Positions 7,261 to 11,002 of a DNA stretch of 20,276 nucleotides are shown in pieces (within the stretch, counting starts at the first letter, position 1; each line of letters starts with the position of its first letter). This DNA comes from a virus. Location: UHGV virus genome UHGV-1757948. One strand, 5' to 3'. The translations under genes and the position numbers were made by a program. The notes under the pieces were generated by a model. That model did no database searches and was not told the DNA's origin. It was given only the letters and a program-made list of their open reading frames with translations.

Positions 7261-7865
7261 ACGAGGTACAAAGCACATTGGAGGTCGCAAAAGGCATAAG
7301 CGACTATGGGATAATGATAGTCATCTGCGCGGTGTTCCTGCTGCTCGCCTCAGGTCTGATGATTGCGTGTTTCCGCTGGTTCAAATCAGCGATAAGCAAC
7401 ATAATATCCTACACTGACGAGCTGCGCGAGCTTAACGGAAAGCTGGAAAACAACAACCACGTCATGGTGACGATAGCGGAGGGACTGATGCCTGAGACAC
7501 AACTGCGGATAAAGAACATATCCGGAGCGTTCTTTGACCTTGCGGTGGAGAAAGTATGCAGACTCCTGAAGAAAATAAGGGAGGAGAACCATATAGCCGA
7601 CAAGGAAAGGACAAAGGCTAAGATACGCACCCTGCTGAGCAACATGTATGAGGACAGGAACAGCAAGTTCGACAATTTCCATTACCGTGGGAAAAAGCTC
7701 TCGGAGTACTGCAATCCGGAATGGACAGAATGGGTGGCGAAAGTAATAGAGGGAGAGCTGTACAATGAGAACGGTGCGAACAACGGAAGAGCCTACACCA
7801 ACGTCAGCGCAGTATATGACAATATAAAATTGGACTTTTATCACAGAATGACAGACCAGATATGA
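7257..7865 (+). CDS. N-terminally membrane-anchored protein with a helical ectodomain (202 aa from ATG 7257)
   Basis: It has an ATGA overlap with the stop at 7258-7260. A single TM (YGIMIVICAVFLLLASGLMIACFRWF) is followed by a charged helical region. It sits directly upstream of the endolysin. An i-spanin-like or lysis-regulator role is only a guess. Confidence 0.65.
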   Translation: MNEVQSTLEVAKGISDYGIMIVICAVFLLLASGLMIACFRWFKSAISNIISYTDELRELNGKLENNNHVMVTIAEGLMPETQLRIKNISGAFFDLAVEKVCRLLKKIREENHIADKERTKAKIRTLLSNMYEDRNSKFDNFHYRGKKLSEYCNPEWTEWVAKVIEGELYNENGANNGRAYTNVSAVYDNIKLDFYHRMTDQI

Positions 7866-7895
7866 CGATAAACGCATTTTACAACATTATAAATC

Positions 7896-8489
7896 ATGGA
7901 AAAGTTTAAAGTTATACTTGATGCGGGACACGGAAGGGACACCGCAGGGAAACGTTCGCCTGACGGACGCCTGCTCGAATACGCATACGCCCGTGAGATT
8001 GCAGTGCGTCTTGAAAGGGAACTCAAGGCACGTGGATATGACGCGCAGCGCATTGTGCCCGAGGAAAACGACATCTGCCTGAAAGAGCGGTGCGAAAGGG
8101 CAAACAGAATTTATGCCGCGACAGGAAAGAAAGCGATACTTGTCTCAATACACTGTAACGCGGCTGGTGCCGACGGCAAATGGCATGACGCCAGAGGATG
8201 GTCGGCTTATGTCTCGCGCAACGCTTCAAAGAAGAGCAAAGAGCTCGCCTGCCGTCTGATTGACGCGGCAGAGACACAAGGACTGAAAGTCCGAAGATAC
8301 TCACAGGATGAGCCATATTGGACACAGAATCTCGCAATATGCCGTGACACAAATTGTCCCGCAGTCCTGACTGAAAACCTTTTTCAGGACAACCGGGAGG
8401 ACGTGGACTATCTGCTGAGCGAGAAAGGCAAGCGAACCATTGTGGAGCTGCACGTGGAAGGCATCATGGCGTACTTGGGGAAAGTGTGA
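7896..8489 (+). CDS. N-acetylmuramoyl-L-alanine amidase (Amidase_3 type) endolysin
   Basis: KVILDAGHGRDTAGKRSPDG, EYAYAREIA, SIHCNAAG and TENLFQDN follow the classical Amidase_3 zinc-amidase motif order. The gene lies at the end of the late operon. Confidence 0.92.
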   Translation: MEKFKVILDAGHGRDTAGKRSPDGRLLEYAYAREIAVRLERELKARGYDAQRIVPEENDICLKERCERANRIYAATGKKAILVSIHCNAAGADGKWHDARGWSAYVSRNASKKSKELACRLIDAAETQGLKVRRYSQDEPYWTQNLAICRDTNCPAVLTENLFQDNREDVDYLLSEKGKRTIVELHVEGIMAYLGKV

Positions 8490-8515
8490 GCTCGTTTCCA
8501 AAATGGAAATAACTG

Positions 8516-8544
8516 ACGACAGTTGCAAATTCCGCAACCGTCGT
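8516..8544 (+). terminator. Possible terminator hairpin after the endolysin gene
   Basis: ACGACAGTTGC (8516-8526) pairs with GCAACCGTCGT (8534-8544) as an 11-bp stem with one mismatch and a 7-nt loop. There is no U-tract, so the call is weak. The 3' arm could alternatively pair with GGTTGC at 8567-8572. Confidence 0.3.
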
Positions 8545-8596
8545 AAAGGCGTTCTTTGACATTGTGGGTTGCCGTTAAAAATACAATATTTTCGAA

Positions 8597-8635
8597 AAAT
8601 TATATACAATTATTTTGGGAAATTATATATCTTTG
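8597..8635 (+). promoter_or_regulatory. Candidate Bacteroidetes-type promoter (-7 box TAnnTTTG) with a flanking direct repeat
   Basis: TATCTTTG at 8628-8635 matches the Bacteroides -7 consensus TAnnTTTG. A 10-nt direct repeat AAATTATATA occurs at 8597-8606 and 8620-8629 (23-bp period). TTTG at 8614-8617 lies closer than the canonical -33 spacing, so the call is tentative. Confidence 0.4.
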
Positions 8636-8647
8636 CACAATATAAGA

Positions 8648-8669
8648 AGCCCTTACGGCAATAAGGGCT
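8648..8669 (+). promoter_or_regulatory. Perfect 8-bp stem-loop in the predicted 5' leader of the accessory cassette
   Basis: AGCCCTTA (8648-8655), loop cggcaa, then TAAGGGCT (8662-8669). It lies immediately downstream of the promoter-like box and upstream of the candidate start codons at 8673 and 8709. Confidence 0.5.
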
Positions 8670-8675
8670 GAAATG

Positions 8676-8690
8676 ACAGACGGTGTGCCC
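8676..8690 (+). repeat. Left arm of a perfect 15-bp inverted repeat
   Basis: ACAGACGGTGTGCCC is the exact reverse complement of 9308-9322. It also takes part in a local hairpin, AGACGG (8678-8683) with CCGTCT (8689-8694). Confidence 0.85.
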
Positions 8691-8708
8691 GTCTTAAATT
8701 TAAATTAT

Positions 8709-9302
8709 ATGGCAAAGATAAATAATAATTTTGAGAAACGAAAACGCATCACGAAAAATGAAGCGTTGGAACTGCTAAAAGATTGTTATGAGGACATCTT
8801 CAAGGCGTATTACGCAGGTCTGGAAAATTACAATGAAGAAATAAATATGACCATACCTGAAGCAAGGACAAGGCTTGTAGGTCCTTTGCTTAACGCAAAA
8901 ATAACAGAGAGTTTCATTCTCACATTTCCCGAGAACTGGAACAAAGGCAAATACGGAAGGATAATATTCAGATGGAACGGTGTGCTCATGCTCATCAAGA
9001 AATTGAACAAGAATGACAAGCCGTCTTACATTCCGACAATACTTTCAGATTCGATTGTCAACCAATACCAATTACCGCTTTTCCAAGGCGATGAAGGCAA
9101 GGAAGAGCCGATATTGATTTTCGGATATACAAAGGACGGTTTCGGGCAGCTCGTAAACCCGAGAATTGTCTTGTATGACGATGGGGTTCAATGGACTGCC
9201 TATATGGAAGACGGTGTAAATATGCCGACTGCCAATACAGACACGCAGGAGATTATTGTCCGCCTGAAAAAGAAAGAGACAGGAGAAAAGAAGGCAGAAT
9301 AA
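8709..9302 (+). CDS. Hypothetical protein with no recognisable domain (197 aa from ATG 8709; the track starts at 8673)
   Basis: It is a long ORF in a low-GC block. ATG 8709 has an unstructured AT-rich upstream context (ttaaatttaaattat), whereas ATG 8673 is embedded between two hairpins. I recognise no motif in the product. Confidence 0.7.
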   Translation: MAKINNNFEKRKRITKNEALELLKDCYEDIFKAYYAGLENYNEEINMTIPEARTRLVGPLLNAKITESFILTFPENWNKGKYGRIIFRWNGVLMLIKKLNKNDKPSYIPTILSDSIVNQYQLPLFQGDEGKEEPILIFGYTKDGFGQLVNPRIVLYDDGVQWTAYMEDGVNMPTANTDTQEIIVRLKKKETGEKKAE

Positions 9303-9307
9303 CAGCA

Positions 9308-9322
9308 GGGCACACCGTCTGT
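9308..9322 (+). repeat. Right arm of the perfect 15-bp inverted repeat
   Basis: GGGCACACCGTCTGT begins 6 nt after the stop at 9300-9302 and is followed by TTTT. It is the reverse complement of 8676-8690. Confidence 0.85.
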
Positions 9323-9354
9323 TTTCAACAAACGACCTATAAAAGCAACGTCTT

Positions 9355-10410
9355 ATGAAATGTGAGCAGCTAACATTCGCAAGGGAATACAGGGGATTTA
9401 CGCAAACCGCACTCGCGGCAAAAGTCAAAGGGCTATCGCAATCCAACCTGTCAAAATATGAAAAGGGGTTTGGCGGGCTGTCAGACAACATGCTTAGTTT
9501 GATTATGTCCACGCTTGATTTTCCGATGAAATTCCTTGACATGAATATTGTGAACAAGGTTGACAGCAAGCATTACAGGAAAAAGGCAACCATAACCGTA
9601 AAGACACGCAACGAGATAGACAGGACAATATCCCTGATTGCGTATTGTTTTGATTGGCTTAGTGAATTTGTCGAGATACCTGACTATTCATTTGGATACT
9701 ACGACATGGACAACGGCATAAGCCCGGAGGAACTTGCCGGGCACATAAGGAACAAATACAGGCTCGGCATGTCGCCTATATCCGATATTTGCAATTTCCT
9801 TGAGCGCAATGGGGTATTCATTTACATGTGGGACAGTCCTAACGACGAGTTTGACGGGGTATCCCTGATAACTGACGCAGGCAATCATCTTATCATTGTG
9901 AACAGGAACAGAAGCAACGACAGGGTAAGGTTTACGCTTGCACATGAGCTGGGACACATACTGATGCACGAGTGCCCAAGTTTCCCGGTATTCAGCATTA
10001 GAGACAAGGAGAAAGAGGCGAACGCTTTTGCATCAGAGTTCCTTCTCCCCTCCCAGGCTGTCAGAAACGCCTTGCACAATGTCAGGCTCGGACAGTTCCC
10101 TGAGCTGAAACGGTATTGGCTTGTTTCCATGGCATCACTTTTGGAAAAGGCAAAAAACATAAACGCCATTGCAAGTGAGAAGTACAAGTCTATGAGAATG
10201 GAGTTCAGCAGACGCCATTGGAATAAGAAAGAACCTTACGAAGTGCCTATTGACAGCCCTACCGTCTTTGAGCAGGCATATAGGCTGGTATCGGACACAT
10301 TGGGGTATTCAATCAGCATGATTTCGGAAAGCACAGGCTTGCCCGAGGATGTCTTGATAAAGATATTCGGCAAATCTGCGAGGATAATATCATTAAAGCC
10401 ACTAATATAA
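9355..10410 (+). CDS. XRE-family HTH fused to an ImmA/IrrE (COG2856, M78-type) zinc metallopeptidase domain
   Basis: The N-terminus LTFAREYRGFTQTALAAKVKGLSQSNLSKYEKG is a typical XRE/HTH_3 domain. The central FTLAHELGHILMHE is a HEXXH zinc site (HELGH encoded at 9943-9957), followed by EKEANAFASEFLLP. This order is typical of ImmA/IrrE peptidases. Confidence 0.88.
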   Translation: MKCEQLTFAREYRGFTQTALAAKVKGLSQSNLSKYEKGFGGLSDNMLSLIMSTLDFPMKFLDMNIVNKVDSKHYRKKATITVKTRNEIDRTISLIAYCFDWLSEFVEIPDYSFGYYDMDNGISPEELAGHIRNKYRLGMSPISDICNFLERNGVFIYMWDSPNDEFDGVSLITDAGNHLIIVNRNRSNDRVRFTLAHELGHILMHECPSFPVFSIRDKEKEANAFASEFLLPSQAVRNALHNVRLGQFPELKRYWLVSMASLLEKAKNINAIASEKYKSMRMEFSRRHWNKKEPYEVPIDSPTVFEQAYRLVSDTLGYSISMISESTGLPEDVLIKIFGKSARIISLKPLI

Positions 10411-10436
10411 CAATTATCTATTTTGATACAACACAG

Positions 10437-10474
10437 GCGGTGACCCACATATCAAGGGTTGCCGCTTTTTGTTT
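10437..10474 (+). terminator. Rho-independent terminator closing the two-gene cassette
   Basis: GCGGTGACCC (10437-10446) pairs with GGGTTGCCGC (10456-10465) as a 10-bp stem that includes two G-U pairs, with a 9-nt loop. It is followed by TTTTTGTTT. Confidence 0.6.
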
Positions 10475-10492
10475 AATAAAAAATGAAAGAAC

Positions 10493-11002
10493 ATGGGAAG
10501 ATTTAAAGGATTGCTTGTGGTAGTATCGGTGTTGTTGACCGCATCATTATGCGTCAACATACTCCAGTGCAGTAATGCCGGAAAGAAAACAACGAATCAG
10601 GACACAGTACGGACTACATATATAGACACCATTCCGTTCTTGAATCCTGTACCCAAAGACAGTACGGTGATACGGTATGTTACGGAGACGTTGCCCGTGA
10701 CTTGCCGCAAAGACACGATATACGAAGAGAAGGGCGGGAATACAGGCGACAGCGTCAAGGTGACACTGCCTATAACTTCCAAAGTCTATAAGGACAGTAC
10801 CTATACCGCATACGTGAGCGGATTCCGCGCGAATCTTGACAGTATATTTGTATATCCGAGACACGAGACTGTAACTGTCACAAGGTACAAGGAAAGTCCG
10901 CGCCTTGGCGTCGGTATTGCCGCAGGTTACGGTATAGGGAAAGACATGAAACCGACACCTTTCATAGGAATATCCGTATATTATAGGCTTTGGCAGTGGT
11001 AG
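10493..11002 (+). CDS. Secreted or lipoprotein-like protein with a beta-rich C-terminus ending in aromatic residues
   Basis: The N-terminal signal is MGRFKGLLVVVSVLLTASLCVNILQCS, with Cys candidates for lipidation. The C-terminus is GVGIAAGYGIGKD...FIGISVYYRLWQW. A terminal aromatic residue is reminiscent of outer-membrane beta-signal sequences. Confidence 0.65.
   Translation: MGRFKGLLVVVSVLLTASLCVNILQCSNAGKKTTNQDTVRTTYIDTIPFLNPVPKDSTVIRYVTETLPVTCRKDTIYEEKGGNTGDSVKVTLPITSKVYKDSTYTAYVSGFRANLDSIFVYPRHETVTVTRYKESPRLGVGIAAGYGIGKDMKPTPFIGISVYYRLWQW

What the first reader, a model, noticed from the sequence alone, without database searches (positions are those of the whole stretch)
8676..9322. Perfect 15-bp inverted repeat precisely brackets the unknown gene of the cassette
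ACAGACGGTGTGCCC (8676-8690) lies in the leader, 18 nt before ATG 8709. GGGCACACCGTCTGT (9308-9322) begins 6 nt after the stop codon. The two are exact reverse complements.

A perfect 15-mer inverted pair is not expected by chance within about 650 bp, and here it frames one ORF almost exactly. The promoter-like box lies outside the left arm. I see three possibilities:
- A DNA inverton that flips the whole gene relative to its promoter. This kind of phase variation is common in Bacteroidales, but no invertase is visible in this window.
- Terminal inverted repeats of a miniature gene cassette. I see no target-site duplication: the flanks are AATG and TTTC.
- Long-range 5'/3' mRNA pairing that controls translation of gene 1 or read-through into the HTH-ImmA gene.
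Basis: seen in the sequence. Interest (0 to 1): 0.56.

Follow-up and report, generated by a model that had tools for sequence, protein, structure and literature searches.

The report
Long-range RNA helix bracketing a toxin gene
The two 15-base arms are not a DNA flip-switch: they are the two strands of a conserved, co-evolving RNA helix that ties the leader of a phage-borne toxin gene to the spacer just after its stop codon, a previously undescribed control element in a toxin-antitoxin-like defence cassette of gut Bacteroidales phages.

Summary
In detail: ACAGACGGTGTGCCC (8676-8690) and its exact reverse complement (9308-9322) bracket ORF 8709-9302.

The ORF is an uncharacterised 197-aa protein. 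It sits upstream of an HTH plus M78-peptidase gene that matches RmrA, the RosmerTA antitoxin.

About 110 further loci hold the same gene pair (148 fetches; some contigs came up in more than one scan). The toxin-like protein falls to 29% identity. In nearly all of them a helix of 11-20 bp joins a site 11-22 nt before the ATG to a site 4-18 nt after the stop.

The arm sequences fall into more than 20 families but stay complementary:
- 13 of 14 pairs show double changes.
- The own partner is the best partner in 13 of 14 families (permutation p<1e-5).
- Non-Watson-Crick positions are 20 G·U against 1 A·C on the sense strand. This points to RNA pairing, not a DNA site.

No locus is inverted, no flipped junction exists in the viral contigs, and the window holds no recombinase among the ORFs tested.

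The left arm overlaps a local hairpin. In most families a U-run follows the right arm.

Best reading: a cis-regulatory long-distance RNA interaction that sets toxin versus antitoxin expression, most likely as a split, terminator-like element. Its exact function is inferred, not shown.

The parts
8597..8635 (+). Promoter region. It holds a direct repeat of AAATTATATA (8597-8606 and 8620-8629, 23-nt period) and a Bacteroidetes-type -7 box TATCTTTG (8628-8635). The inferred transcription start is near 8640. The repeats are a likely RmrA operator.
   Evidence: Repeat D2. TAnnTTTG lies at -78 to -87 from the toxin ATG in 35 of 35 unique loci. The same box sits upstream of rmrA homologues that lack an upstream toxin gene. 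The RmrA recognition helix GLSQSNLS is invariant. The operator role and the transcription start are inferences.
8648..8669 (+). Hairpin 1: a strong 5'-proximal stem-loop of the leader (AGCCCTTA-cggcaa-TAAGGGCT).
   Evidence: Seen in the sequence and in the scan. A hairpin at this position, with a different sequence, is predicted in every family folded.
8676..8690 (+). Left arm of the long-range helix (ACAGACGGTGTGCCC).
8678..8694 (+). Local hairpin HP-L (AGACGG-TGTGC-CCGTCT). Its 5' strand and loop are the left arm, so it competes with the long-range helix.
   Evidence: Fold -7.8 kcal/mol. A local hairpin is predicted in most families. Covariation support is moderate: 63.5% of cells paired against 32-54% for slid controls.
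8709..9302 (+). Toxin-like ORF of 197 aa with no known family. The model has a weak restriction-endonuclease-like (PD-(D/E)xK) fold.
9301..9323 (+). Weak local hairpin HP-R (AACAG..GG-GCACA-CC..CTGTT). It includes part of the stop codon. Its loop GCACA is complementary to the HP-L loop TGTGC.
   Evidence: Fold of the spacer, -6.9 kcal/mol.
9308..9322 (+). Right arm of the long-range helix (GGGCACACCGTCTGT).
9322..9326 (+). U-run (TTTTC) abutting the 3' end of the helix. It is terminator-like.
   Evidence: Across families the 8 nt after the right arm hold a mean of 4.4 T against 2.3 in background. 22 of 40 pass the rule of at least 5 T in 8, against 9% in background. The window itself has only a 4-T run.
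9355..10410 (+). rmrA-like gene: HTH_3 plus Peptidase_M78 (ImmA/IrrE), of the RosmerTA antitoxin type.
   Evidence: PADLOC RmrA E 5e-59. Pfam. PHROG 2439. NCBIfam spr1629 repressor/antitoxin, below its cut-off.

Best explanation
**What it is.** The two arms are the strands of a long-distance RNA helix in the sense transcript of a two-gene cassette: a toxin-like gene followed by rmrA. The cassette is carried as a roughly 2-kb module by Bacteroidales phages.

**Anatomy.**
- Transcription starts about 70 nt before the toxin ATG, at a conserved TAnnTTTG promoter.
- The leader folds into a strong 5' hairpin followed by a small hairpin, HP-L.
- The 5' strand and loop of HP-L are complementary to the spacer that starts 5 nt after the toxin stop codon.
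- Once that spacer is transcribed, a helix of 15 bp (11-20 bp in other lineages) can replace HP-L. This closes the whole toxin cistron into a loop of about 620 nt.

**Shown.**
- The helix is real, conserved, co-evolving and selected on the sense RNA strand (about 0.9).

**Inferred.**
- It is a cis-regulatory switch that sets how much toxin and how much RmrA is made from one promoter (about 0.7).
- The sub-mechanism I rank first (about 0.35-0.4): the helix plus the U-run after it acts as a split intrinsic terminator, or 3'-end-forming structure, whose upstream half lies in the leader.
  - Transcripts in which the helix forms would end before rmrA, with paired 5' and 3' ends.
  - Transcripts in which HP-L holds the left arm, or in which a ribosome sits on the stop codon 4-9 nt upstream of the right arm, would read through into rmrA.
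For: **Position**
- In 35 unique leader/spacer pairs from 72 loci, a helix ends 15-20 nt before the ATG and starts 4-9 nt after the stop.
- The same holds in more distant families, with toxin identity of 29-45%.

**Co-evolution**
- There are 14 arm families in the first set. The own partner gives the best duplex in 13 of 14.
- Mean duplex energy is -28.1 kcal/mol for own partners against -13.9 for cross partners. Permutation p<1e-5.
- On a sequence-only MAFFT alignment, 87% of cells are paired against 27-47% for slid partners.
- 13 of 14 pairs show changes on both sides. The covariation score is 0.60 against 0.07-0.20, and 0 of 500 shuffles reach it.

**RNA on the sense strand**
- In 36 distinct helices scored symmetrically, there are 20 G·U/U·G against 1 A·C (binomial p 1e-5; by my own count about 15 independent events against 1).
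- The helix is in the MFE and centroid fold of 8641-9360.
- Its predicted probability is 0.77-1.0 in 16 families.

**Not DNA inversion**
- No flipped locus, no flipped junction, no recombinase among the ORFs tested.

**Not an RmrA operator**
- The recognition helix GLSQSNLS is invariant while the arms vary. The promoter repeats are conserved instead.

**Terminator-like reading**
- T is enriched right after the right arm.
- In several distant families the right arm has no local partner (spacer fold 0 to -4.6 kcal/mol) yet carries a U5-7 run.
- Some families without the long-range helix carry a local hairpin at the same place, which in L183 is followed by a U-run.
- No conserved internal promoter for rmrA was found.
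- Helix lengths of 11-20 bp fit terminator stems better than the roughly 22-bp RNase III substrates (this last comparison rests on general knowledge).
Against: - No experimental data exist: no transcript ends, no structure probing.
- The U-run is not universal. The window's closest relatives L029-L032 have an A-run instead, and the window itself has only UUUU. The conserved function therefore cannot be termination alone.
- A terminator stem whose halves lie 620 nt apart would have to form during a brief pause. I know of no precedent.
- Termination before the antitoxin gene looks risky for the host unless the closed toxin mRNA is poorly translated. Yet the predicted accessibility of the start region is not reduced by the helix: 0.577 with it against 0.528 without.
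- In the L078-type family the T-rich stretch after the arm also reads as a TAnnTTTG promoter box.
- Support for HP-L is only moderate, and it is not predicted in some distant families.
- The evidence from families without the long-range helix is anecdotal (3-4 of 6 loci).
Confidence: 0.7

Rival explanations
1. A fold-back lock of the hok / aapA type. The 5'-3' helix would keep the full toxin mRNA translationally inert or unusually stable, HP-L would be the co-transcriptional metastable hairpin, and activation would need removal or melting of the right arm.
For: The architecture is the same as the long-distance interaction plus metastable hairpins described for type I toxin mRNAs (PMC6733600, read). 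The left arm keeps a tight distance of 15-20 nt to the ATG. HP-L competes with the helix.
Against: The helix does not cover the start region, and predicted accessibility of -18 to +12 is not lowered by it. Bacteroidetes mRNAs have no Shine-Dalgarno sequence to sequester (general knowledge). The right arm is internal to a bicistronic unit, so 3' trimming cannot remove it unless the transcript ends there. The toxin is a 197-aa protein and no antisense RNA is evident.
Confidence: 0.2
2. An RNase III-type processing stalk. The helix would be cut, separating the toxin and rmrA cistrons so that they decay at different rates, as with the long-range stems that flank 16S and 23S rRNA.
For: It is a gene-bracketing helix of perfect duplex. 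Flanking A-U pairs extend it to about 18-22 bp in some families (duplex outputs).
Against: Core helices are mostly 11-17 bp, short for RNase III. This model does not explain the U-run after the arm or the competing local hairpin. No cleavage data exist.
Confidence: 0.15
3. A DNA inverton. A site-specific recombinase would flip 8691-9307 between the arms, switching the toxin gene off.
For: A perfect 15-bp inverted repeat flanks a segment of about 620 bp, in a Bacteroidales context where invertons are common (general knowledge).
Against: No inverted copy was seen in any fetched locus. The flipped junction has 0 hits. No recombinase was found among the window ORFs tested. The arms change sequence by compensatory substitutions with a 20:1 excess of G·U over A·C, and that asymmetry has no meaning for duplex DNA. 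Assemblies report a consensus, so rare flips cannot be excluded.
Confidence: 0.03
4. Two operator sites for the RmrA HTH domain, bound on DNA and looped to repress the toxin gene.
For: Type II antitoxins usually autoregulate (general knowledge). The left site is a palindrome, AGACGG-N5-CCGTCT.
Against: The RmrA recognition helix is invariant across families while the arms differ completely. The right site is not a palindrome in many families. The G·U bias argues for RNA. Conserved repeats at the promoter are better operator candidates.
Confidence: 0.04
5. Terminal inverted repeats of a miniature mobile cassette, or a chance repeat.
For: The repeat frames one ORF. The window has an excess of other perfect 15-mers that look like chance.
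Against: There is no target-site duplication. The arms lie inside a conserved module of about 2 kb. The gene between them is never absent or exchanged in the loci examined. Covariation excludes chance.
Confidence: 0.02

Closest known systems
5'-3' long-distance interaction of type I toxin mRNAs (hok tac/fbi; Helicobacter aapA/IsoA)
   Same: A toxin mRNA whose 5' leader pairs with sequence beyond the stop codon. The pairing is conserved by covariation, and local hairpins form first and are later replaced by the more stable long-range helix (PMC6733600).
   Different: In those systems the helix sequesters the Shine-Dalgarno sequence, the mRNA is monocistronic, the toxin is a small peptide, the antitoxin is an antisense RNA, and activation is by 3' trimming. 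Here the start region stays open in the predictions. The toxin is a 197-aa protein. A protein antitoxin gene lies downstream on the same transcript. A U-run follows the helix.
RosmerTA (RmrT/RmrA) anti-phage toxin-antitoxin system
   Same: A two-gene cassette with an HTH plus Zn-peptidase (M78) antitoxin-type protein and a partner of unknown function (Millman et al. preprint).
   Different: The partner matches no PADLOC RmrT model. In the papers I read, I found no RNA element described for RosmerTA. Toxicity and defence were not tested here.
Intrinsic (Rho-independent) terminators and attenuators
   Same: A G+C-rich helix followed directly by a U-run. A competing upstream hairpin, HP-L, could act as an anti-terminator.
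   Different: The 'loop' is about 620 nt and contains a whole gene. The U-run is missing in some lineages. Termination has not been shown.
RNase III processing stems that bracket 16S and 23S rRNA (general knowledge)
   Same: A long-range helix formed by sequences on both sides of a gene, which excises that gene's RNA.
   Different: Those stems are longer, and cleavage is documented for them. Here the helices are 11-20 bp and no cleavage data exist.
Bacteroidales invertons (invertible promoters and gene segments)
   Same: A short perfect inverted repeat flanking a few hundred bp in a gut Bacteroidales element.
   Different: Only one orientation is seen, there is no invertase, and the arms covary like RNA.

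Membership tests
DNA inverton | Inverted repeats flank the invertible segment | tested here: met
   15-nt perfect arms with 617 nt between them.
DNA inverton | Both orientations occur in populations or assemblies | tested here: not met
   All fetched loci are in one orientation. The flipped-junction pattern has 0 hits in viral contigs. Raw reads were not examined.
DNA inverton | A cognate invertase (serine or tyrosine recombinase) is encoded nearby | tested here: not met
   No recombinase domain in the window ORFs scanned.
Type I-toxin-style 5'-3' long-distance RNA interaction (hok/aapA) | Leader pairs with the 3' region of the toxin mRNA, supported by covariation | tested here: met
Type I-toxin-style 5'-3' long-distance RNA interaction (hok/aapA) | The interaction occludes the ribosome-binding site | tested here: not met
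   The arm ends 15-20 nt before the ATG. Predicted accessibility of -18 to +12 is 0.577 with the helix against 0.528 with it broken. This is prediction only.
Type I-toxin-style 5'-3' long-distance RNA interaction (hok/aapA) | Small hydrophobic peptide toxin and an antisense RNA antitoxin | tested here: not met
   197-aa folded protein. A protein antitoxin-type gene lies downstream. An antisense RNA was not specifically searched for.
Type I-toxin-style 5'-3' long-distance RNA interaction (hok/aapA) | Activation by 3'-end processing | not testable with these tools
   Needs transcript-end mapping.
RosmerTA | RmrA: HTH plus Zn-metallopeptidase antitoxin | tested here: met
   PADLOC RmrA models, E down to 5e-59. 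Pfam HTH_3 plus Peptidase_M78.
RosmerTA | Adjacent RmrT toxin of a catalogued family | tested here: not met
   No PADLOC hit for ORF 8709-9302. It is a separate, conserved family always paired with this RmrA clade.
RosmerTA | Toxicity neutralised by RmrA, and protection against phage | not testable with these tools
   Experimental.
Intrinsic terminator | G+C-rich stem directly followed by a U-run | tested here: inconclusive
   22 of 40 helix variants pass the rule of at least 5 T in 8, against 9% in background. The window has UUUU, and close relatives have an A-run.
Intrinsic terminator | Short loop (3-8 nt), so that the hairpin forms at the pause | tested here: not met
   The two halves are 617 nt apart. 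The local alternative HP-R is weak, -6.9 kcal/mol.
Rfam families | Match to any curated RNA family | tested here: not met
   Only chance-level hits, far below the gathering scores.

The most novel reading that the evidence does not exclude
The helix is the stem of a split, translation-sensing terminator. Its upstream half lies in the leader and its downstream half plus U-run lies just after the toxin stop codon.

- If no ribosome is finishing the toxin ORF, the arms pair as RNA polymerase reaches the U-run. The transcript then ends as a closed, toxin-only RNA.
- If a ribosome sits on the stop codon, 4-9 nt from the right arm, or if HP-L holds the left arm, polymerase reads on into rmrA. Antitoxin mRNA would then be made in step with toxin translation.

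This would be an attenuator acting across a whole gene, in a phage-defence cassette of a phylum that lacks Shine-Dalgarno-led initiation.
Probability: 0.22. Interest if true: 0.85.

Novelty: new variant of a known kind. Interest (0 to 1): 0.64.

Why it matters
- **A new level of control for these systems.** Toxin-antitoxin and abortive-infection systems must keep a lethal protein silent yet ready. For protein-antitoxin systems this control is usually assigned to the proteins: autorepression and proteolysis.
- **A gene-spanning RNA structure.** It is conserved with textbook covariation across a family that has diverged to about 30% protein identity. It appears to be part of the design of a RosmerTA-like cassette that is widespread in human-gut Bacteroidales phages.
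- **A link between system types.** It carries the RNA logic of type I systems (long-distance interaction plus competing local hairpins) into a two-protein system.
- **Possible new mechanism.** If the U-run is functional, this would be a terminator assembled across 600 nt.
- **Easy to test.** Mutating either arm, then restoring pairing with the compensatory double mutant, gives a direct experiment.
- **A caution for inverton scans.** Short perfect inverted repeats around a gene can be RNA helices.

Tried and rejected
- **Phage-record BLAST** of 7800-10600 found only one weak hit and no annotated relative.
- **First cross-locus control.** A lenient score (G·U +0.5, wide windows) was confounded by A/U-rich stretches. 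Cross scores were high. I replaced it with position-restricted duplex energies and longest Watson-Crick runs.
- **First mismatch census** was biased, because G·U was rewarded during helix extension. I redid it with symmetric scoring.
I therefore tested the window-derived structure on the 21-sequence alignment, with slid and shuffled controls.
- **Single-protein RmrA scan** found only close relatives. The alignment-based scan was needed.
- **Fold searches for the toxin-like protein** gave only weak restriction-endonuclease-like matches.
- **Start-site occlusion by the helix** was tested by partition-function folding and is not supported.
- **An internal promoter for rmrA** was sought and is not conserved.
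- **Rfam** gave nothing.
- **The 21 single-arm 15-mer hits** in viral contigs were treated as chance and not analysed.

Full report
**1. The observation**

The window holds ACAGACGGTGTGCCC at 8676-8690 and its exact reverse complement at 9308-9322, with 617 nt between them. The left arm ends 18 nt before ATG 8709. The right arm begins 5 nt after stop codon 9300-9302.

Markov shuffles give 0.01-0.025 such pairs within 1 kb per window. However, the window also has three other perfect inverted pairs of 15 nt or more at long range, and four direct ones. The repeat alone is therefore suggestive and not decisive.

**2. Context**

- ORF 8709-9302 (197 aa) has no Pfam, PHROG, PADLOC or NCBIfam match.
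- The next gene, 9355-10410, is HTH_3 plus Peptidase_M78. It matches the PADLOC RmrA models at E 5e-59.
- RmrA is the antitoxin of RosmerTA, described as a Zn-peptidase antitoxin with a toxin of unknown function (Millman et al. preprint).
- Upstream lies an Amidase_3 lysis gene. The rest of the window is phage-like and shows no recombinase among the ORFs tested.
- The promoter-toxin-rmrA unit is a roughly 2-kb module found in unrelated flanks. Homology runs from about 8495/8545 to about 10470/10520.
- An AF2 model of the 197-aa protein (pLDDT 84.5) gives only weak restriction-endonuclease-like matches.

**3. Relatives**

- Eight close viral contigs keep CAGACGGTGTGCCC(GTCT) and GGGCACACCGTCTG invariant inside variable spacers.
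- The protein has 117 homologues.
- Scans of viral, genome and metagenome collections, plus an RmrA-profile scan, gave 148 fetches. These amount to about 110 distinct loci, because some contigs were fetched more than once.
- All 72 loci of the toxin-based set have toxin gene then rmrA on one strand.
- Nearly all RmrA homologues down to 33% identity are preceded by a homologue of the same protein.
- No locus is inverted, and the flipped-junction pattern has no hit.

**4. The arms co-evolve**

- In 35 unique leader/spacer pairs, a helix of 10-17 bp ends 15-20 nt before the ATG and begins 4-9 nt after the stop. The arm sequences differ between lineages.
- Examples of left arms: CAGACGGTGTGCCC, AAGTGGTGCGTCC, GCCAACGATATAC, CGGCACACCGCC, AAGCGGCGCGCCC.
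- More distant families add others, including AAATTCGGTGATGTA, AGGTAGTGGGATTTGTC, TGATAAGGAGGGTTGC and a 20-bp helix.
- With windows fixed by position, the own partner gives the best duplex in 13 of 14 families: -28.1 against -13.9 kcal/mol, permutation p<1e-5.
- On a MAFFT alignment that was not fitted to structure, 87% of cells pair against 27-47% for slid partners.
- 13 of 14 pairs show double changes, and no shuffle of 500 reaches the covariation score.

**5. RNA, not DNA**

- With symmetric scoring, the non-Watson-Crick positions in 36 distinct helices are 20 G·U/U·G and 1 A·C on the sense strand (p 1e-5).
- Variation between families is dominated by transitions that pass through G·U. One example is UGUG/CACA in the window against CACA/UGUG in L053.
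- The helix is in the MFE and centroid structure of 8641-9360. Its predicted probability is 0.77-1.0 in 16 families.
- The RmrA recognition helix GLSQSNLS is invariant while the arms vary, so the arms are not its operator.
- The conserved AAATTATATA repeats at the promoter are the better operator candidate.
- No Rfam family matches.

**6. Anatomy**

- A TAnnTTTG box lies 78-87 nt before the ATG in 35 of 35 loci.
- A strong 5' hairpin follows in every family folded.
- The left arm is the 5' strand plus loop of a small local hairpin, AGACGG-UGUGC-CCGUCU in the window. Covariation support for this hairpin is moderate.
- The right arm is the loop plus 3' strand of a weaker local hairpin that includes the stop codon.
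- The two loops are complementary (UGUGC and GCACA). The design resembles a kissing pair that can extend into a duplex.

**7. Function (inferred)**

- The helix does not reduce the predicted accessibility of the start region: 0.577 against 0.528. A simple occlusion lock is therefore not supported.
- A T-rich run follows the right arm far more often than background: 4.4 against 2.3 T per 8 nt, and 22 of 40 against 9%.
- In several distant families the right arm has no local partner at all, yet carries U5-7.
- Some families that lack the long-range helix have a local hairpin there instead, which in L183 is followed by a U-run.
- rmrA has no conserved promoter of its own.
- I therefore rank first a split, terminator-like or 3'-end-forming role that partitions transcripts into toxin-only and toxin-plus-rmrA forms. 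HP-L, and ribosomes at the stop codon, would be the natural antagonists of this structure.
- Caveats: the U-run is absent in the window's closest relatives, and I know of no precedent for such a long-range terminator.
- A hok/aapA-type fold-back lock and an RNase III stalk remain live alternatives.

**8. Verdict**

- The inverton and terminal-repeat readings are rejected.
- It is a new variant of the long-distance interactions known from type I toxin mRNAs, here in a two-protein, RosmerTA-like phage cassette.

Noticed in passing
window 3042-3057/18955-18970; 16317-16331/18296-18310; 16757-16771/20121-20135: Three further perfect inverted pairs of 15-16 nt at 2-16 kb distance, plus four perfect direct pairs of 15 nt or more, against 0.15-0.37 expected from Markov shuffles. 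The 16317/18296 pair brackets four minus-strand genes. Whether any of these is conserved was not checked.
   Followed up: no
window 8597-8606 and 8620-8629: Direct repeat of AAATTATATA with a 23-nt period. The second copy overlaps the -7 box TATCTTTG. It is conserved in all families, and also upstream of rmrA homologues that have no upstream toxin gene (L160-L170). The RmrA recognition helix is invariant, so this is a likely RmrA operator.
   Followed up: partly
[not shown]
   Followed up: partly
window 8495-10520: The promoter-toxin-rmrA unit behaves as a roughly 2-kb module. Homology to other contigs starts just after the amidase stop and ends just after rmrA, and the flanking genes differ.
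   Followed up: partly
L160, L162, L167-L170, L180 (about 2400-2500): RmrA homologues at 42-44% identity sit directly behind the same promoter box with no toxin gene upstream. The gene order is different, or these are solitary HTH-peptidase genes. The downstream genes were not examined.
   Followed up: no
L078, L080, L082, L083, L099 (spacer after the right arm): In this family the T-rich stretch after the right arm reads TACTTTTG, a TAnnTTTG box about 30 nt before the rmrA ATG. It could be an internal promoter specific to this lineage.
   Followed up: no
window 8516-8544: A 13-bp stem-loop (ACGACAGTTGCAAATTCCGCAACCGTCGT) lies between the amidase stop and the cassette promoter, at the left homology boundary of the module. 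The scan flags it as terminator-like on the minus strand.
   Followed up: no
L183 about 2430-2470 and its leader: This distant locus has a classical local terminator-like hairpin after the toxin-position gene (GGGGAGGAA..TTCCTCC plus TTTTT). The loop of its 5' hairpin (GGAGGAAGG) is also complementary to the hairpin's 3' strand. This may be an intermediate between the local and long-range designs.
   Followed up: no
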